Assembly (NCBI RefSeq): GCF_000497125.1
Contig: NC_090602.1
Coordinates: forward strand, 1 to 64,000
Reading direction: 5' to 3'
DNA: 64,000 bases
Source: Spironucleus salmonicida
Lineage: Eukaryota
Shown here: piece after piece, positions 33,382 through 46,912 of the stretch
Numbering within the stretch: position 1 is the first letter of the stretch
Layout: every line of letters starts with the position of its first letter
Position numbers and translations under genes: made by a program
Notes under the pieces: generated by a model
Databases searched by the model: none
What the model saw: only the letters and a program-made list of their open reading frames with translations
What the model was told of the DNA's origin: nothing

Positions 33382-34416
33382 TCACTATCCGACTTTATCA
33401 ATTAAACTTATTCTCTATCTCTATTTTTTTAATTGAAACTCCCCGCTGCACCAAATACTTTTGCTTATATCAAGAAGCTTCTAGAGTAAAAAAGTAGCTA
33501 GAAAATTTTTATTAACCAATATTTTTTCTGTTAATTCAGGTGGAATTTCCTAACCAGCAAATTCTATAAATGTTTTATAGAAAATTTTCACGGAAACTAA
33601 AATTTCCTGTTCGTTTAGAGACACACTACTTATTTACTCAATAACAACCCATACACATGTCATTTATGATGTAAAATCTGATAAATCATAGACAGACCCT
33701 TATTCTTAGAAAAGAATTATGATATTGTCGTTCCCAATATGGCGCTTTTTAATTAATTATTAATCATCATTATTGACATGCTTCAGCCAAGTGGATACAT
33801 GAAATGCCAGCTCAGTATCTAATAAATGTGTATATAGTACATCGCCATCGCGTCCTTTAGCATCTAACCCACCTGTATAGTAAGTCAAACCATTAGTAAT
33901 TTAAATACGCTGCCCCAAAATAGACAAAAATTACTCAAAATTTTCAAAAGATCCCGTGTTTTGTAACATTTACTATTCAGTATTTTAATCACATTTTTGA
34001 TACAAGATACCTATTTTACGTTATTTTTAAGAATTATTCTCAAATTCTAAAAATTATTGTAACACTACAATCGATGGAGATTTAATCTCCTTAAAATCGT
34101 TCATTTAGATAAAGAGTGCTTTTTGAATCTAATATTACTTAGGTTTCATGAATAATCTTTAAAATGCCGTTAAAATTGGTTTAATTGTGTATTAAGTTAT
34201 TCCATTATTAGATAATAATATTATATCCCAATATTTATCCTGCAAAAATATGTACATGAGGCAGTTACTGCCTTTATCTGTATACTTGTATGTGTATAAT
34301 AATAAGCTATTAGAAATTATTGCCTATATTTTTTAATTGATTGAAATATCATCTTGTACAATTGAACGGTGTACACCTAAGCATTCTTCTTTGAAGAAAG
34401 TATTTTATAAAATCAT
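33382..34416 (-). CDS. Rap/Ran-GAP (Rap1GAP/TSC2/RalGAP-type) domain protein (344 aa)
   Basis: KIGILY, FEQFLSILG, YTGGLD, AFHVSTWL and KKRHIGND (Asn-thumb) motifs. Confidence 0.9.
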
Positions 34417-34463
34417 TAAAAATTATAAATTACTATAGTATACATATATAATTATAAATGCGT

Positions 34464-36422
34464 TCACAATTTTGAAATAAAATCCATTTCTTTTTCATAC
34501 CATTATTAAATTTCCAGGACTCTTCTTCTGGTTCTTTCGAATTCACACTATTAGATCATTTTAATTGATGTCTCCACTAGGTCTTTTTAACTTGCAATAA
34601 GACCATCTTCTCTAACTTCTACCAGACCTTATTTATGCTCATGCGCATTCATTGCTGCAGTTGTAATTGATCCTTTATCTTTCAACAGATTTAGGACTTA
34701 TGGCGACATCTCAGCAGGTAAAAGATTTTAAACATCCTACTACTGTGATCCTGGCATTTAACCTTGATTTTAACTAGTTAAATCTACAGCGTCTGCAATA
34801 GTATCATCGTTCTAATCTTGATTTTAAATTTATTATTAAGATTCTTTCCAGAGTTTGAGTTCCAACGCCTTATTAAGTAGATCTTATACTTTTTCGTGAA
34901 GTTATAATAGAAGTGATTTGAATGACTAAAATCCTGCCTGAGCAACTTCGGCGGTTTTATTTTATATAGTAGTCAATGTATTTGTAAGGGTGTCTAGATT
35001 TTCTTAAATCTCATATTAAACTTCTGATTCTAAAGCATTTAACATCTTTTTGGCCTAATTGAGTATATTTAAAATAAAAGTTTTCTTTAAATTCTCTACT
35101 TAAGTATCACCAGCAGGTACATATTATGATTGATCAACTTTCTAATTTTTATCTAAATCACCTAACTATAGCGAAGACTCTAACTAATCAACCTAGTTAA
35201 TTAAATCATCAACCTCCTACTTTTCCTCATTTTCCTAAAATGATTACTCTTCTGCCTCCGCTTTTTACTCACCCACTAAATCCATTTCTTCTGCAACATT
35301 TTTTTACTTTCTTTATAATTCTCTGATTTCTCTTTGTGAAATTCTCATTTCCGCTTTTCCATTCAGAACAAAATCTTTACCTATGTAATAATCCGTAATA
35401 ATGCTTTTAGTTTAACCAATTAAGTCATCTAATACTATTTAGTAAAATTCTTCGAATTCGCAAATTTCTCCTTAGCGAATTATCCTTCTCCTCCTCATAA
35501 TCTTACTAAACTATCTCAATGTTGCAATTGCCTCTGTCCTAAACCATCCTACAGCCTCCATTTTAATCGCTGGTATTTAAAATATCTTCTCGTTTGCATC
35601 TCCTGTTAAAATATCAGTGTCAACCAAAGTATCAAAACCCAAGCAATCTGATGCTGCATCAATTCTAATTTATTTCGTTTTAACTATAGCTTGCTATACA
35701 GCCTTTATTTCCAGTTGATTTTTCTCTTCAAGTGTTATGAGCTCGGTTTTATATGCATCTGTTGCCTTCTATCGCTCATCTGGAAGAATGACAATAAAGT
35801 CTAAATATTTTAAGGAAGGTAAGTATGCCACAGTTTCTTTTCTATAAATTGAAAGGTTTACTTTTGATTCTTTCGAAAATTCATTATTAGATAAAACTAA
35901 AATTCTTAGTTATTTAAATGTTTATAGTATTTTAATAGTATCTTTTAGAGGACCTGGTAGGGAATTATTAGCTAGATTAATTGATTACAGTGAATGAGAC
36001 GACTATGCTAATCCAGTGAGTCCTTTATAATTATCTTACAGTTTTAATAAACCGCTAATATTAGTAATTTAATTGTTATTTGCAATTAAGTCTGTTAGCT
36101 TATTTAACTTATCAATTCCATCTAATGAAGAAAGTTTATTAAAAGAAACATCTAGAACCTCTAAATTTATTAACTAGTCTAAACCAGTGAGAATCTCAAT
36201 TGAATTATTTGTGAGAACTAATTTTGATAACTATATAAAATCATTAATGTTGGAGATTGTACAAATATTATAATTAGGTAGTAGAAGTGTCCTTATTTAA
36301 GGAAAATCATCTTCTGTATAATTATTTCTAGAATCTGCAATTAGAAGAGCCTTTATTATAAGATCTGAAGTAAGCATCTGGTAGTCCTTATGGAACCCTG
36401 GAAGAGTTGATAGATCAGTCAT
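34464..36422 (-). CDS. DRC3: Leucine-rich-repeat plus coiled-coil protein, dynein regulatory complex subunit 3-like (652 aa)
   Basis: SDS22-type LRRs (LEVLDVSFNKL), LRR cap VAYLPSLKYLD, and C-terminal KDKGSITTAAMNAHEH...REDGL...ERTRRRVLEI resembling DRC3/LRRC48. Confidence 0.75.
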
Positions 36423-37759: not shown

Positions 37760-38164
37760 ATGCTGACGGATACCATCTTTCTTGAATAATGTAAGCAACA
37801 CTTTAATCTAGATGAATATCTAAGTCTCACTGAACAAAGTAAATTAAACTGGCGATTCACGAATCTTCCTAATATGGATTATAATCAATTGATGGCATTT
37901 TTTGAATATTGCATTGAACCTGAAGAAATTAGGAATGGCTACATCTACAATATCGAAGGAGATTTTAAGGAAGCTGAATTACGCTAATTATAACTATCAG
38001 AAGAACTTGATTAAATCACACAATAATAACTGAAATTACAATAATAACTTGCTAAAAAAGAATAAGAATATAAAAATTTTTAATAAAAACAACATAATTT
38101 AGACACCACATGGAAGTTAGAGTAGGAAGTAGATAAAGATGCATTCGACGAGCTCATGGAGTGA
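37760..38164 (+). CDS. Hypothetical coiled-coil protein (134 aa)
   Basis: Open under code 6, Q/E/K-rich heptads, stop GAGTGA. Confidence 0.7.
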
Positions 38165-38975
38165 TCAAGTTTATCCAGCCTGTCCTGTTCAGTTCTATTT
38201 ATACACGTTCGAAAGCTATAAGCAATTAGTTATCTTATAGTTAAATAGAGGAAAACTTTAATATTTTAATATATTCTAATATCTATTTTTCTAATATAAC
38301 ATACAAGTCTAAAATAATATTAATTTATTAACGGAAATGTTCTACAAATGAACGTTCAGAATAAATCGATGACAAATTAGTTCGTGCTATTATACCTGCA
38401 CGCTTATGGCAGCTAATAACTCTCGGAATTTTTAAATTGTTAAAGCTACTATGAATACTTAGTATACCAGCCATATTTGCTGGGTAAAAATCAAAAATTT
38501 TATCCAAAATACACAAACACTATTAACGCATACATGGTATCTTTAAGATTTACGTTTTCAATAGGTTGCATTAAAGCCATTTTTTATGATTTACAAGCCG
38601 GATATTTTTGGTAGCTATAAAGTCATTTTGACGAAAGTAATTAATTTCAGATAACTGAAACTCTCGCATTTACTTTAATTATTTTCTACCTTCTGCAAGT
38701 TATTGCTTAAGCTAAAAGTTGGTAGACTATTACATTAATACAATAGGAATTTTTTCAAATTCTTAACATGCTTCAGGATATGTTAAAATAAGCTTTAGAA
38801 GCCAATTTGCATTAACTGTTAAGTCAAAATTATGAACTAAAAAGTTGAGCTTTTGTGCAAAAATCAAAGAGTTAAACTGTGATTTACATATAAACTGCTA
38901 TAATTTAAAAGTATTAACATAGGTGAGAGGTATGTTTTCCATTAAGGAAATATATGCTGATTTTAGCCATGACAT
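38154..38975 (-). CDS. Hypothetical protein (273 aa), head-to-head with the TERT-like gene
   Basis: ATG 38975 (MSWLKSAYISL...) to TGA 38154; the track ORF 38328-38516 is in frame. Its 3' end overlaps the convergent gene by 11 bp. Confidence 0.7.
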
Positions 38976-39014
38976 GGAATATAATTATTTAATATATAAT
39001 ATAATAAATTAAAA

Positions 39015-40685
39015 ATGAGAGTTAAATTGAATTATTTTTTTCCCTTTTTCGAAGCAAATATTTTAATTAATTCTGATGATTTATGGTAAATTAAATTAAT
39101 ATCTAATTAAAATTTGCAATCTTGTAAAAATTTATCCTATAGTTAATTTTTGATTAATTCTGCGTTAAATAATCCACTAAACTGTTTATTCAATTATATT
39201 AATCCAAAAACTATAAATTATTTAGAATAATCAGGTCATATTCTATTCACACCACAATTCATACGGTTTTTTCACCTATATGGGTAGTAGTTATAGAATT
39301 TACTTAGTTCTAGATTATATCTACTTAAGTCAAAGATTTACCAATTCACAGGACGTATTGATTTTACTATTTAGCATAATATTAAGAAGCATGTTGCTTC
39401 CTTAATAAATAAATAGTAATCGATTACCGTTTAAGGTCAATTTAAAAAAATTAAGAGGCACGTTATTCATCGAATCAAATTATTTTAAGTTTTGCTAGAT
39501 AATTAAAAGTTGATAATAGAATAAAGAGTTATCTAATAAATATTGCATAAATTTTTTTATCCTGTATTAGGCAATTTTTAGAAAATAAATTTTAAGTAAC
39601 TAATCAAAAAATTTGTTTTCAATCAAGAATTAGATAAAGTAGAGAATGAAATTGTCACTGAGATTATTGCTCCTTTAATGTCATAATATTTACTATTCTC
39701 TTAAGATATGTATATTTAGCGTAAATTGGTTTCCCATTCTAGTTTAAAAATTTATTCAGAGTAAATATCCACATCGAGCTATATTTAGTCAGTTTTAATT
39801 CCTATGCCAAAACGAAACCAACAAGTTAGACCACTAATTATGTCATATGACTAGGATTCTATATTACCTATTATAAGATATATCTTTTAGGATAAAAATT
39901 TTTCCACTGTTAAATAATGTTTAGATGATATAAATTCAGGAAAATATACAGATGTTCTCAATGCATTTAATTTGGTTAATCAATAAGAAATATATTAACT
40001 TGTTATCAATAAAATTAAAAGCTTTCCTGAGTATTTTTAAACTATAAATTGGATAAAAATTTAAGATATTATGTATCCTCAAAAAATTACTCTAATCAAA
40101 AACATAGATCTTCAAAGATTAGTAAAAGAACACATTTTAAATTTTAAGTTTTTTGATATTGTATCGTGTACAAAATTTCGATTAATTCAAGGTATTCCAT
40201 AAGGCGCCCCCCTCTCTCCATTTTTATTTTTAGTTTGGATGGATTATAAAACTACTAAATCTCTAATTTCTTTTGTAAAACTAAACAATAGAAGCATAAT
40301 TGTTAGAAGATATGTTGACAATATTGTTTCATCCGAATAATTTACGATTTCTGGTGTCGATACAAGATAAACATAAGATTTTTGTGGTCATTACGATAAT
40401 TTTTATCAAGAAATTTTATTTCACTAGGAATTTACTGAAAAGAAAATTTTGATGAAACTAAAAATTATTTAAAAGCTAGATATTGGGCATTTGGAAAAAT
40501 TGGGTTATAAATATTTATTATTAAGGTTAGCAAAATGCAAGCAAATAAGTATTTTTAATAAAAAGCTTATTGCAATTTAAGGTATATTATCTAAATAGTT
40601 TCCATAGTACTTCTTGTTTATTTATGGTATTTTTATGTAATCTTAAATGAATTATTATCATAACAATTTTATCATAAGTAAGTGA
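39015..40685 (+). CDS. TERT: Telomerase reverse transcriptase-like protein, minimal (556 aa), motif C = YVDN
   Basis: Code-6 ORF with motifs in TERT order: GQ-like IYQFTG, QFP-like (LHKFFYPVLG...KQLIKKFV), degenerate T (EIIAPLMSQYLLFSQDMYIQRK), motifs 1/2 IPMPKRNQQVRPLI, A YTDVLNAFN, about 75-aa A-to-B' insertion, B' QGIPQGAPLSPFL, C RRYVDN, E FCG. Stop AAGTGA. Confidence 0.85.
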
Positions 40686-40800
40686 ATATTATAAATTATA
40701 AATTATAATAATTTCTAATACAATATTATTACTAATTATTACCTAAAAAACTGGTTCAAAAAATTTATTTATTACTTAAGTTTAATGTATGGAATTGATT

Positions 40801-40815
40801 TTCCCATTCCATCAA
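40801..40815 (+). promoter_or_regulatory. C-rich element just upstream of the start codon (example of a recurring motif)
   Basis: TTCCCATTCC precedes ATG 40816. Similar CCA(C/T)TT elements follow an AT-rich tract upstream of 42154, 44146, 47057 and 59515, and on - upstream of PKA, RPL18 and Raptor. Confidence 0.55.
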
Positions 40816-41178
40816 ATGGGTTGTGGCGCAACAAATTCACTCGATAACAAAAAACCTCTTGCTAAGTCTTTTGACTGCATGGTTGTCAACAAATCTGACA
40901 AGTTTCTCAATATTTCTTGCATAACTGGTTCAGGATCAACAATTGAAGCTCAGACTGACTCTGTTATGAAGAAATTACTAAAAGAGTTAACTAAACATAA
41001 TATGAAAGCTACTAACGTTGTTAAGCTTGAGTGTCTCCTTAGCGACTTGTAGAACTTTGCAAAGTTTAACGAAATTTATGGTGCTGCTTTAGATGGGTGG
41101 AAACCTGCTAGATTATGTGTTTAAGATAATTTAGCTTCTGGCATTCTTGTGTAACTTAACTGTATTGCTACTGATTGA
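40816..41178 (+). CDS. RidA/YjgF/UK114 family protein (120 aa) with N-terminal MGCG acylation motif
   Basis: TIEAQT, NVVKLECLLSDLQNFAKFNEIY, KPARLCV (family Arg retained) and LVQLNCIA. Confidence 0.85.
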
Positions 41179-41262: not shown

Positions 41263-41907
41263 ATGATACCTTTGGACCCGTAAAATTATTTGCTTTAACT
41301 TATTTTAATTTTATTGACTACATGCATTAACGCATTCTTTTCTGGATATTTCATCTATAGCATGCATACGTTAAACTCAATTTTTTCGATTATATTTCTT
41401 AATTTGGCAGACATCGTGTCTCTTTTAATTTCTAGCTCGAAATACTGTATATCTAAGTAAATATCAACACCTTTACTCGGTACTTAACGTGGAATTACAA
41501 AAATTTAAAAGCTATATAACTTTGAGGAAATATTTATTTTGATTGCAGCATGCTTTTTAATTGTTAATTAAAATTAAATTTACATTACAATCCCAATTTT
41601 TATTTTGTCTAGTTTGTTAGTTTTTAAATAAAGGTTTTCGTTTATCTTAATATAACTATCATCATTATCCATTATTTTGATTTCCTACTTTTTGTATTAA
41701 TCATGGCAAGTTATTATTATTTGTTGCTTAGCTTGTGTCTCCATATCTCTTAAAATTAACTTTAACACTTAAATATAGATTAAGACTCATAAAAACTCTA
41801 GACTCTAATTATATACTCCTAAAAGCAGATTTGGAAAGGAGGACTTATCAACATTGATAAATATTTTTGCAAAAGGATTAATTCTAGTTAAAATGTTTGT
41901 TGAATGA
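41263..41907 (+). CDS. Hypothetical multi-pass membrane protein (214 aa)
   Basis: Open code-6 frame with several long hydrophobic stretches. Confidence 0.6.
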
Positions 41908-42153
41908 TTTATTATTTATTTTTATGCATTAATATTGTTTTTATCTATGAGACATAGCTTGGACTCTAATTGTATACTAAACATACAAAGGTGTAATTTT
42001 AAAACTTCCAAAACTTTTATTAATTTTTAGTTTCAATATGAGATATAAATTCATATCTATATATTACTATACATTTTTGAAAAATAGATTATTAGAAATA
42101 AAAATATAATAATATAAATTTTATCATTGTACCACTTCATTATCCAGAAATTA

Positions 42154-44070
42154 ATGACTGAGATTTTTAATATTGCTTTATTGATAGATAACCTTAAACA
42201 TGAGGAAGTTAATGAAAGATTAAGATCAATGTAATCATTAGATAAAATTGCTACAGCCCTTGGTACCAGACGTACTGCATAGGAGTTACTACCATTCCTT
42301 TGTGATTGTGTCGATGATGACGATGATGTTTTATTATAGTTACTGTAATAATTAAAAAGATTCCCATCTTTGGCTGGATCTGAGCAACCACTTATTCCAG
42401 TACTCTAATTATTAGCAGTTGGTGATTCTAAAGTTGTTCGAGATTAAGCAGTAGAATCAATTCTTGAGCTAAAAGAATCTTCTATAATTTTACCCGTAGT
42501 TGAATAGTTACTTGACTCTGAGTGGTATAACTATCGCACATCTGGGCTTGCTTTATTAAGAAGATATTTATAATCAGTATAGGCACCTGAAAAAAGAGCC
42601 AATGCTCTTAAATAGGTAAGAACTTGTTCTACTGACCCTTTGCCTATGGTTCGGAGAGCTGTTGCTGAATCTCTTGCTGAATTTGTGAAAGAGCTTAATT
42701 TATAAGAAATGCAAACTCTTATTAAACCTTTATTAAAACTCTTATCCGAGGATAGCCAAGATGCTGTTCGTGCAGTTGCTATTAGAGCTATTGCACCTGT
42801 CCTTTTATAATTCTCAAAACTAGCAAAGGAAAATCAAGCACAATTAAATGATATAAACGTCTCCAGAAAAGAAATATATTAAAGATTTATTATAAAGTAA
42901 TGTAGTGAAGAGTCTTGGCGTACAAGATATATATGCGCTGACGTATTTTCTTCTATAATTGAAGCCTATTTAGGATTTTCTGAATTTTCACCTTTATATA
43001 CTCTTCCTAAAGAAACATAGGATGCTCGTGAATGCGACGAAGACGTAGACCCCTTTAAAGGAAATTCTTTAAATTAAATTACACCATCAGTAGTACCAGA
43101 CTTCAATAAGCAAATCGTTAAAAATTCACCTGAATTACCGGTAGGTCCAGATTTTGATGAAGTAAAAGCAGCGTAAACATTTGCCAAATTATTAGCGGAT
43201 AAAGAACCAGAAACACGCTGTGTTGCCATTCAGCGTGTAATTCGCGTCTCCAACAGGCTTCAACAGTCATCAATTTAATCTCATATATTGCCTTAATTAG
43301 AGGAGCGCGCTATATCCGATGATTCTATTTTTGTTCGTGTGACCTTGGCTCGACATATATCATACATTGCACCGTTATTATCGAAAGATATAATTCTAAA
43401 ACAACTTGTATCTGTTATTTTAAAGCAATTGGACGATAAGGATGCAAATGTGCGTGTATTTGTACTTAAAAATTTGCTTCCAGTTACATAAGTTGTAGGA
43501 TTAAGTGTATTTGGTGATAAAATATAGAATACCATTGTTGTTCTCTCCGAGGAAGCTGATTGGCGTGTTCGTGTCTAGGTGATCGAGAGCTTAGTAGAGA
43601 TATCAAAACTTATCGAAAGTTCCATTTTTGACTAGAAATTTAAAAATTTGGCTATCAATTATTTGAATGATCCAGTAAACTATGTAAGGAGAATAGCAGC
43701 AAGCAGTCTAGTACAAATTGCGTTAGCTTTTGGTATTGAATGGGCAAGAAAAGTAGTTGTTGGATAGATTAGTGATATGAGTAAGAAGTAAAACTATTTA
43801 CAGAGAAATAACTGTTTATTTTTGGCTGAAGAACTAGCGTTGGTTTTGGGTAAAGATCTAGGCTAGGATTTATAGAGCATATTTATTCAGCTCTGTGAAG
43901 ACTAAGTACCTAATATCCGTTTTATGGCATGTGAAGTCATTGGAAAAATCTCTAAGTCTGTGCCTGAATCAGTCAAAACATAGCTGCTTTAAAAGGTTAA
44001 TAGTCTATTGAATGATGCAGATAAAGATGTTTAGCAATTCGCTTAGGCTGCACTCAAAGCTGCAAAGTGA
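42154..44070 (+). CDS. PPP2R1: Protein phosphatase 2A scaffold subunit A (PR65), 638 aa
   Basis: IALLIDNLKHEEV...IATALGTRRTAQELLPFL...DDDDDVL, PMVRRA, SWRTR, DWRVR and DQVPNIRF HEAT motifs. Stop AAGTGA. Confidence 0.95.
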
Positions 44071-45784: not shown

Positions 45785-46912
45785 TCAGTCAAAAATTGTC
45801 TTAAATACAGTAAGTACATCCTCATATTTAGCAGCAACCTCAATAATGACTCTAACAGCACTTCCACCACCTACAACCTCTATTACACTTTTCAACCTAT
45901 CGAGGACTTCTCCTCCGCGTTTTTAATTAGAACCAAAAACAACCTTCAGCTTATTCCCACTCATGTTAAAAACACACGCATTCTAATATTCTTTGAGCAA
46001 ACTTGCTAATAATGGTTATATATCAGCATTTTCAAGTGAAATTGACTGCACAAAAATCGACTTAAAATCCTTCAATTCAGTCACATTTTCACACATAAGA
46101 TATCTACTGAGCACCTTCAAAACCTCAGAGTTACGCTTCTTGGTAGCTTTCAGTTCCGCTTGCATCGCTTTGACGCTCTCGAAAACGTCGAATTCGCCAG
46201 TCGTCAGATGCTTAGAAATTCGAAGCAGTTCATTCCTGGAACTGTTTAGTTTCTAAATAGCTTGACCACCAAAAGAGAACTCAATCTTGATACCTGCTTT
46301 AACATTTTCAACAGATAAAACTTTACAGATCTACAACTCGGAAATGTCGCTAACGTGCGTCCCACAGCATCCACAGGAGTCCAAGCCGATAATACTGACT
46401 AGCCTGAACGGAAATTTCAATTTTCCACTCCTATACTCTTAAGGAATTTCATCAGATTCCTGCGTAAATACCTTTATTTCAACTCCTGCTCCTTTTGCAA
46501 TTTTCAAATTCGTATTTTCCTCAACTTCATCGATCTATTTTTGGCTTAATTTGATGTTTAATTCTATTGTTGCGTAGTCTTCAAATGCGGTGAAGGAGCT
46601 GCTTTTTGCGTTGTGCATCCGTTCAAATTCAGCGCTCAAAAGGTGCTGGCCGGTGTGTAAAAGAGACGAATTCCTGCGGCGGTTTTCAGAAATTTTTACT
46701 ATTACAACCCCAGATATGTCTTTATCCATGAGTATGCTATCGCCAGAAAATAAGGTAAACGGTATGTCATTTATAGTTCCACAGTCTGGAAGCTGTCCAC
46801 CACCGCCAGAGAATAGAAAATTAGGTACTAATGAGATAGCAAACTTGTCGTTTTGTGGTATCGAAGTAGCAGTAGCTTCAAAAGTATAAATATTTTCTGT
46901 ATAAGCAAACAT
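45785..46912 (-). CDS. AlaX / AARSD1-type free-standing alanyl-tRNA editing protein (375 aa)
   Basis: GGGQLPDCG, HTGQH (HxxxH) and CCGTHV (CxxxH) zinc-site motifs. Confidence 0.9.

What the first reader, a model, noticed from the sequence alone, without database searches (positions are those of the whole stretch)
39015..39790. Extreme compaction of the TERT N-terminal half: short TEN-like domain, almost no linker, collapsed T motif
Seen: only about 260 aa precede RT motif 1. A GQ-like IYQFTG ends near aa 113 and a QFP-like block follows. The T-motif position reads EIIAPLMSQYLLFSQDMYIQRK, where the consensus is FFYxTE-(hairpin)-YxRK, so FYxTE is degenerate and the hairpin appears deleted. Established: CP and T motifs bind telomerase RNA, Giardia TERT was reported to lack a recognisable T motif, and Tribolium TERT (596 aa) lacks TEN. 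Inference: this protein would be shorter than Tribolium TERT while keeping a TEN remnant, implying an unusual or very small RNA partner.
Basis: partly seen in the sequence, partly recalled or inferred. Interest (0 to 1): 0.7.

Follow-up and report, generated by a model that had tools for sequence, protein, structure and literature searches.

The report
Shrunken telomerase candidate in a diplomonad
This single-copy gene is probably the telomere-building enzyme of a Spironucleus-type protist, shrunk to about 60% of the Giardia enzyme and lacking one of three normally invariant catalytic aspartates, but the proposed layout of its front half is only weakly supported and a similarly compact enzyme is already known from nematodes.

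Summary
The ORF is real: 39015-40685 (+, genetic code 6), 556 aa, single copy, intron-free by its signals, with about 260 aa before RT motif 1. It is a very divergent reverse transcriptase with no detectable relative. It is probably TERT (about 0.75): it carries a TERT-type helix just before motif B', it is the only non-LINE RT among 24 G-h-P-Q-G sites in the genome, and the genome has (TAGG)n telomeres. Folding did not resolve the N-terminal half. Compaction is not confined to the N-terminus: fingers, IFD and thumb are also short, and motif C reads YVDN, where 44 of 44 reference TERT loci have DD. Caenorhabditis TRT-1 (540 aa) is a published precedent for a shorter TERT with TEN-like and odd T motifs, and its RNA is of ordinary size, so a very small RNA does not follow. 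Verdict: new variant of a known kind, moderate interest.

The parts
39015..40685 (+). 556-aa ORF (table 6), divergent reverse transcriptase, probable TERT (P0001)
   Evidence: single copy; the full-length protein is a public record; RT profile hits
38976..39014 (.). 39-nt AT-rich spacer ending in a run of A before the ATG; probable short promoter/initiator, shared with a divergent ORF
   Evidence: sequence; promoter role inferred from PMC3916229 passages
39216..39359 (+). aa 68-115, GQ-like block ending in IYQFTG (possible TEN remnant; in the rival reading its end is the Gly of QFP)
   Evidence: best GQ-profile site, 20 of 1000 shuffles, 17 of 236 control windows
39519..39644 (+). aa 169-210, QFP-like block (in the rival reading aa 193-221 is the T motif, with E205 as its Glu)
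   Evidence: best QFP-profile site, 99 of 1000 shuffles; rival from alignment A3 and spacings
   Evidence: present in sequence; not above chance alone, 717 of 1000 shuffles
39789..39845 (+). aa 259-277, RT motifs 1 and 2
   Evidence: best site of the motif 1-2 profile, p about 0.15 alone; P265, K266, R272 fall on invariant columns
39933..39998 (+). aa 307-328, preferred motif A with D313 (nt 39951-39953); D293 and T298 are rival registers
   Evidence: pattern and spacing by inspection; profile scores do not decide; MAFFT prefers the other registers
40107..40244 (+). aa 365-410, TERT-type last helix of the IFD and motif B' (GIPQG)
   Evidence: z 8.4 against shuffles; helix 13.9 bits, above 54 of 54 bacterial-type RTs and the genome's LINE RT, 0 of 5000 shuffles; hhalign E 8e-5
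40296..40334 (+). aa 428-440, motif C, YVDN: D435 kept, second Asp replaced by N436 (nt 40320-40322)
   Evidence: contigs of 3 of 4 runs cover the codon with no other letter
40392..40514 (+). aa 460-500, motif D (K477) and motif E (G497)
   Evidence: alignment columns; C-to-E spacing 62, reference median 62.5; weak on sequence alone
40515..40682 (+). aa 501-556, short basic C-terminal extension (thumb remnant)
   Evidence: 59 aa after G497 against a reference median of 191, partly truncated references included; pI 10
40681..40685 (+). AGTGA: stop codon fused with the polyadenylation signal
   Evidence: signal described in PMC3916229, passages
1..2290 (-). (TAGG)n telomere, the presumed product of the enzyme

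Best explanation
The ORF is the organism's telomerase reverse transcriptase, reduced along its whole length. Shown: it is an intact, single-copy RT with a TERT-type IFD-end helix in a genome with simple (TAGG)n telomeres. Inferred: the basic N-terminal 260 aa bind the telomerase RNA, most likely as a TEN remnant (to aa 115) joined almost directly to a cut-down RNA-binding domain (QFP-like 169-210, degenerate T 211-244); fingers, palm and a short thumb close around a short RNA-DNA hybrid; D313 and D435 hold the metals, N436 standing in for the third ligand, and K477 is the motif D lysine; it copies a template of a little over one CCUA repeat. Loose control of alignment and template boundary would explain the extra G runs in the telomeres.
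For: RT: PADLOC RT profile E 3.2e-6 over aa 293-438, Pfam RVT_1 E 0.002-0.004 on sub-regions, group II RT E 0.004. TERT rather than another RT: IFD-end helix at the canonical distance before GIPQG scores 13.9 bits, inside the range of the 32 TERT references (11.4 and up; they are the training set), above 54 of 54 bacterial-type RTs (best 9.7) and the LINE RT (3.8), 0 of 5000 shuffles; A-to-B' distance 80 aa against 48-50 in LINE and group II RTs; chain GQ>QFP>T>motif 1-2 reached by 1 of 400 shuffles and 0 of 225 control windows, and GQ>QFP>T is the best of 6 orders. Host-gene character: single copy, GC 23% like neighbours (25-38%), unlike the LINE ORF (48%), pI 9.7, the value given for Giardia TERT (PMC10999387). 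Need and exclusivity: 9 chromosome ends with 2.2-3.5 kb TAGG arrays were analysed among 18 ends read; of 24 G-h-P-Q-G coding sites in the genome only this gene and 6 LINE copies have RT context. YVDN occurs in intact belpaovirus RTs (PMC9094657, passage), so it need not mean a dead enzyme.
Against: A whole-length TERT HMM does not detect the protein (best stretch 2.1 bits; shuffles reach 3.5). The B' core scores higher on the bacterial-type profile (23.8 bits) than on the TERT profile (12.5). No Pfam TERT family on the whole protein or its N-terminal pieces; no relative in three protein searches and one library-wide search (one search did not list it either). The canonical T consensus is absent; single N-terminal motifs are weak and the chain loses strength against real proteins (up to 10 of 83 windows); I chose that chain after seeing that CP and the upstream TEN block failed. 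N436 breaks a pair that is DD in 30 of 30 aligned references and 44 of 44 loci. Motif A is not fixed by any score. No Penelope-like control could be obtained.
Confidence: 0.62

Rival explanations
1. It is TERT, but without TEN: the 260 aa are a normally spaced RNA-binding domain of the Tribolium type. IYQFTG is the Gly block of QFP, the T motif lies at aa 193-221 with E205 as its Glu, and the hairpin is degenerate rather than deleted.
For: Alignment A3 is near-collinear in this register and puts E205 on the invariant T Glu. Spacings fit the references: P54 to G113 59 (median 58), G113 to E205 92 (median 91), E205 to P265 60 (quartiles 58-60), Y7 to P265 258 (range 245-448). TEN loss is common in protostomes and protists (PMC5405514, PMC2943602, passages).
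Against: A whole-TRBD profile is not better than control proteins (33-74 of 135 windows score as high; 3-26 of 200 shuffles). The anchor residues are common letters and G113 was chosen by eye.
Confidence: 0.2
2. It is not TERT but a domesticated or stranded RT of another class (endonuclease-less Penelope-like element, or an old bacterial transfer); the true TERT is elsewhere and undetected.
For: Best library hits are generic or bacterial RT profiles; B' core fits the bacterial-type profile better; B' followed by PLSP and C as RYVD recall Penelope-like RTs (recalled, no call); TERT queries find nothing in the genome, this gene included, so those searches cannot exclude another divergent TERT.
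Against: TERT-type IFD-end helix and long A-to-B' insert; ordered N-terminal chain; single copy, host-like GC, no room for an endonuclease; no relative among bacterial and archaeal genomes or viral contigs; no other non-LINE G-h-P-Q-G RT in the genome.
Confidence: 0.18
3. It is a TERT orthologue that has lost catalysis (N436, and no Asp at motif A if the T298 register is right) and is kept for a structural role, telomeres being maintained by recombination or another polymerase.
For: DD in 44 of 44 reference loci; the three aspartates are called invariant (PMC2943602, passage); MAFFT and the TERT motif A profile slightly prefer the register that puts T298 at the catalytic position; short thumb.
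Against: The T298 and D293 registers leave only 28-33 aa between motif 1 and A, shorter than in any RT compared here; D313 begins an ungapped D-h-x-x-A-F-N-x-V pattern like that of the genome's LINE RT; YVDN occurs in intact retroelement RTs; telomere arrays are long and about 95% pure TAGG (5862 of 6172 units have a 2-G run).
Confidence: 0.12

Closest known systems
Caenorhabditis TRT-1 (PMC1361356, passages seen)
   Same: About the same size (540 aa in that paper); GQ/DAT-like N-terminal remnant; unusual T motif lacking conserved residues; N-terminal motifs invisible to BLAST; very short C-terminal domain; the same guess of an unusual RNA was made there.
   Different: TRT-1 was given a CP motif and no clear QFP; here QFP is the better and CP the missing one. 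TRT-1 is genetically proven. Its motif C was not seen here; no sequence of it was available for comparison.
Giardia TERT GL50803_16225 (PMC10999387, section 6 and passages; PMC5405514, passages)
   Same: Diplomonad, single exon, pI 9.7, T motif absent or degenerate, short G-rich repeat (TAGGG), RNA unknown.
   Different: 960 aa against 556; described with four domains; its putative T motif has eight extra residues rather than a deletion; activity shown by TRAP. It was not detected as a relative.
Tribolium castaneum TERT (PDB 3du5, 596 aa; PMC2943602, passages)
   Same: Compact TERT; model for the TEN-less rival reading.
   Different: Lacks TEN outright and keeps D251, D343, D344; this protein is 40 aa shorter, has N at the third position and may keep a GQ block.
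Nematode belpaovirus RTs with YVDN (PMC9094657, one passage)
   Same: The same Asp-to-Asn change in motif C in an intact RT.
   Different: LTR retroelement polyproteins, unrelated architecture; shared motif is convergence. Activity was not shown in the passage seen.
The genome's own LINE-like RT (L002, 1075 aa, 6 copies)
   Same: RT core; similar motif A and B' wording; 26% identity over 110 aa.
   Different: Multi-copy, GC 48%, YADD, 48-aa A-to-B' distance, zinc-finger and endonuclease-like flanks; no TERT-type IFD helix.

Membership tests
TERT | RT palm motifs B' and C | tested here: met
   palm modelled at pLDDT 70-84 over aa 401-468 apart from one loop, but with a TERT alignment supplied
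TERT | Motifs 1, 2, A, D, E in order | tested here: inconclusive
   1-2, D and E align on conserved columns but are weak alone; motif A has three registers
TERT | Three invariant catalytic aspartates | tested here: not met
   D435 yes, D313 probable, third is N436; DD in 30 of 30 aligned references and 44 of 44 loci. Hence filed as probable orthologue and variant, not as a proven member
TERT | Insertion in fingers domain between A and B' | tested here: met
   80 aa (TERT references 118-134; LINE 48; group II 50) ending in a TERT-type helix, 0 of 5000 shuffles
TERT | Canonical T motif (FYxTE, hairpin, YxRK, W) | tested here: not met
   no site above chance, 717 of 1000 shuffles; two candidate degenerate sites (aa 193-221, 211-244). 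Accepted TERTs of Caenorhabditis and Giardia also depart from it
TERT | CP and QFP motifs of the RNA-binding domain | tested here: inconclusive
   QFP 99 of 1000, CP 366 of 1000 shuffles; PF12009 not hit
TERT | TEN domain with GQ motif | tested here: inconclusive
   GQ best at aa 68-115, 20 of 1000 shuffles, 17 of 236 control windows; upstream TEN block absent; region not folded
TERT | C-terminal extension (thumb) | tested here: inconclusive
   59 aa after motif E, helical in the model; PF21399 not hit
TERT | Single-copy host gene without endonuclease, in a genome with simple G-rich telomeres | tested here: met
TERT | Binds a template RNA and adds telomeric repeats | not testable with these tools
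   needs RIP/CLIP and TRAP; Rfam finds nothing in the window
Penelope-like element RT | GIY-YIG endonuclease and multi-copy element structure (features recalled) | tested here: not met
   single copy, no Pfam domain (which also missed the RT), 59 aa after motif E; endonuclease-less forms exist (recalled)
Penelope-like element RT | RT profile closer to Penelope-like RTs than to TERT | not tested
   pattern scans returned no Penelope-like reference
Non-LTR retrotransposon RT (the genome's LINE family) | Zinc fingers, C-terminal endonuclease, poly(A) tail, repeated copies | tested here: not met
Bacterial RT (group II, retron, DRT) by recent transfer | Detectable prokaryotic relatives and a 50-aa A-to-B' distance | tested here: not met
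   0 of 97 pattern matches in genomes and 0 of 8 in viral contigs confirmed; no hit; distance 80 aa

The most novel reading that the evidence does not exclude
A working telomerase that has shed about 40% of the Giardia-size enzyme from every domain, keeps a TEN remnant fused straight onto a miniature RNA-binding domain, and polymerises with only two aspartates (D313, D435) plus an asparagine, copying a template with a very short alignment region that stutters on G. It would be a natural minimal TERT showing which parts are dispensable, and the handle for finding a diplomonad telomerase RNA.
Probability: 0.3. Interest if true: 0.7.

Novelty: new variant of a known kind. Interest (0 to 1): 0.45.

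Why it matters
If it is TERT, it supplies the telomerase gene that standard profiles miss in a hexamitid diplomonad, and a bait for the diplomonad telomerase RNA, which a 2024 review lists as unknown for Giardia (PMC10999387). It would be a second, independent origin of a roughly 550-aa TERT, and would test whether the third 'invariant' aspartate is needed. The N-terminal compaction by itself is less surprising, because Caenorhabditis TRT-1 already shows it.

Full report
Setting. The window starts with 2.3 kb of (TACC)n, a (TAGG)n telomere, and long ORFs appear only when TAA and TAG are read as Gln. With stops lying in AGTGA, this marks a hexamitid diplomonad; the same repeat and signal are published for Spironucleus salmonicida (PMC9509377 and PMC3916229, passages), and earlier notes on this genome use that name (unchecked AI notes). 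Motif names follow PMC1361356 and PMC5405514 (passages); the consensus used to fish for references was recalled.

The gene. The ORF 39015-40685 encodes 556 aa, pI 9.7. It is single copy and exists as a full-length public record whose name is withheld; a second public model starts at M264 and drops the whole N-terminal half. Extra 5' coding sequence is unlikely: an in-frame TGA lies 14 codons upstream with no Met between, the spacer to the divergent ORF is 39 nt, and no CTRAC branch-point motif occurs between 37764 and 40894. Expression at the 5' end was not observed; contigs of four guessed-RNA runs of one study cover only 40005-40486, without differences, and 3 of 4 include the N436 codon.

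It is a reverse transcriptase, and very divergent. Pfam finds nothing on the whole protein and no relative exists in the searches run. Generic RT profiles do hit aa 293-438: PADLOC E 3.2e-6, RVT_1 E 0.002-0.004, group II RT E 0.004. I read motifs 1-2 at aa 259-277, A most likely at D313, B' at G393, C at D435-N436, D at K477 and E at G497. Motif A is my choice on pattern and spacing; scores do not separate D313 from D293 or T298.

TERT or another RT. To get real references I scanned metagenomes with a T-motif pattern (119 loci) and added 12 proteins; the profile finds solved TERTs first. The set looks fungal, algal and ciliate, with no metamonad, insect or nematode member, so its profiles are harsh on a divergent protein. 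A whole-length HMM fails (2.1 bits; shuffles to 3.5), and profile comparison matches only aa 360-408 (probability 61%, E 8e-5). The best class-specific sign is the helix ending the insertion in fingers domain: 13.9 bits at the canonical distance before GIPQG, within the TERT range, above 54 of 54 bacterial-type RTs and the genome's LINE RT, reached by 0 of 5000 shuffles. Against this, the B' core itself fits the bacterial-type profile better (23.8 against 12.5 bits), and no Penelope-like control was obtained. Context favours TERT: host-like GC (23% against 48% for the LINE ORF), no endonuclease, 9 ends with long TAGG arrays analysed among 18 ends read (a tenth passed the filter but was not parsed), and, of 24 G-h-P-Q-G coding sites in the genome, RT context only here and in 6 LINE copies. 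A TERT with another B' wording would escape that test. I put TERT orthology at about 0.75.

The N-terminal half, the subject of the finding. Alone they are weak: 20, 99 and 717 of 1000 shuffles score as high, and 17, 44 and 140 of 236 windows from 23 other long ORFs of the window; CP (366 of 1000) and the upstream TEN block (980 of 1000) give nothing. In order they do better: GQ>QFP>T 0 of 600 shuffles and 4 of 236 windows; with CP included 2 of 400 and 6 of 236; with motifs 1-2 added 1 of 400 and 0 of 225. Over four parameter sets the chain is reached by 0-3 of 200 shuffles but by 1-10 of 83 windows, and it is the best of 6 orders. I chose the three-motif chain after seeing the single results, and control windows overlap. 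The register needs heavy deletion: 152 aa from the GQ Gly to motif 1 (reference minimum 258, n = 20), 20 from QFP to T (minimum 57), 35 from the T Glu position to motif 1 (57-60 usual). A rival needs almost none: a TEN-less RNA-binding domain with CP near aa 54, IYQFTG as the QFP Gly block and E205 as the T Glu fits four reference spacings, but its sequence scores are no better than controls. Four alignments gave four registers. Folding did not decide: without an alignment pLDDT 36; with TERT rows over aa 355-556 only, the palm formed and the N-terminal half did not, and fold searches found no clear match. So a TEN remnant with a collapsed T motif is a little more likely than not given TERT, and is not shown.

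Compaction runs through the protein: motif 1 to A 48 aa (references 81-141), A to B' 80 (118-134), after motif E 59 (median 191), while B' to C (42) and C to E (62) are normal (n = 20). Motif C is YVDN; references have DD in 30 of 30 aligned rows (9 rows lack the region) and 44 of 44 loci. The three aspartates are described as invariant in TERT (PMC2943602, passage), but YVDN is a feature of intact nematode belpaovirus RTs (PMC9094657, passage), so activity is plausible.

How it most likely works. Inferred from TERT structure as reviewed in PMC2943602 and PMC5855555 (passages): the basic N-terminal half holds the RNA, fingers, palm and a short thumb ring the hybrid, D313 and D435 bind the metals, and a template a little longer than CCUA is copied in 4-nt steps. 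One product-side hint: over 9 ends, G runs number 43 (one G), 5862 (two), 191 (three), 72 (four), 2 (six) and 2 (twelve); independent one-base errors would give about 6 four-G runs. This fits stuttering at a CC with a very short alignment region, a mechanism known from Paramecium (PMC5855555, passage), but long-read error was not excluded.

Comparison and novelty. Caenorhabditis TRT-1 is 540 aa, with GQ/DAT and CP homology, an unusual T motif and under 30 aa of C-terminal domain, and the same guess about an unusual RNA was made for it (PMC1361356, passages). Its RNA proved of ordinary animal type and size (PMC12921731, passages), so small protein does not imply small RNA. Giardia TERT is 960 aa (PMC10999387, section 6) and a putative T motif with eight extra residues was reported for it (PMC5405514, passage). 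PMC6759080, PMC1805757, PMC8211666 and PMC12133305 (passages) added nothing on diplomonad TERT. Five searches listed no paper on a hexamitid TERT, but most subscription papers and some supplements are outside the library and the database name was not visible. Because the canonical T motif and the third aspartate are not met, I file it as a probable TERT orthologue and a new variant, not as a proven member.

Verdict. Observation partly confirmed; interpretation partly supported; interest 0.45. The most valuable points are the gene itself as bait for a diplomonad telomerase RNA and the YVDN site, more than the N-terminal compaction.

Noticed in passing
window 1-2290; L246, L250-L252, L254, L255, L257, L261: Telomere variants are mostly extra G: 191 three-G and 72 four-G runs against 43 one-G among 6172 units, about twelve times the four-G count expected from independent errors, plus long G runs. 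Stuttering or sequencing error.
   Followed up: partly
window 40320-40322: Motif C second Asp is Asn (YVDN); outside the finding's coordinates, and arguably its most unusual feature.
   Followed up: yes
window 39804-40685 (P0002): A public 293-aa model of this gene starts at M264 and omits the whole N-terminal half, which would hide its identity.
   Followed up: yes
L002:1-3228 (G000 C3 and C34, 6 copies): Intact-looking 1075-aa LINE-like ORF with zinc-finger-like, RT and endonuclease-like parts and a poly(A) run, in an internal cluster.
   Followed up: partly
window 38154-38975 (-) and 38348-38848 (+): Two overlapping ORFs (273 and 166 aa) upstream; the minus one starts 39 nt from the TERT candidate's ATG. 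Neither exact sequence is in the protein collection and neither has a clear Pfam match.
   Followed up: partly
window 40789-41178 (+): RidA/L-PSP family gene right after the candidate (Pfam E 7e-13), covered by contigs in 4 of 4 runs.
   Followed up: no
window 41263-41907 (+): Hydrophobic 214-aa ORF covered by contigs in 4 of 4 guessed-RNA runs; not identified.
   Followed up: no
window 2291-2315; L255, L252; L246, L257: Different chromosome ends share near-identical AT-rich sequence at the telomere junction, in at least two types.
   Followed up: no
window 8643-9669: Three tandem copies of a 343-bp unit, 90% alike, in the subtelomere.
   Followed up: no
window 33382-36422, 41947-44070, 45785-46912: Ordinary neighbours by Pfam: Rap-GAP, leucine-rich repeat, PP2A-scaffold-like HEAT and tRNA-editing (SAD) proteins.
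   Followed up: no
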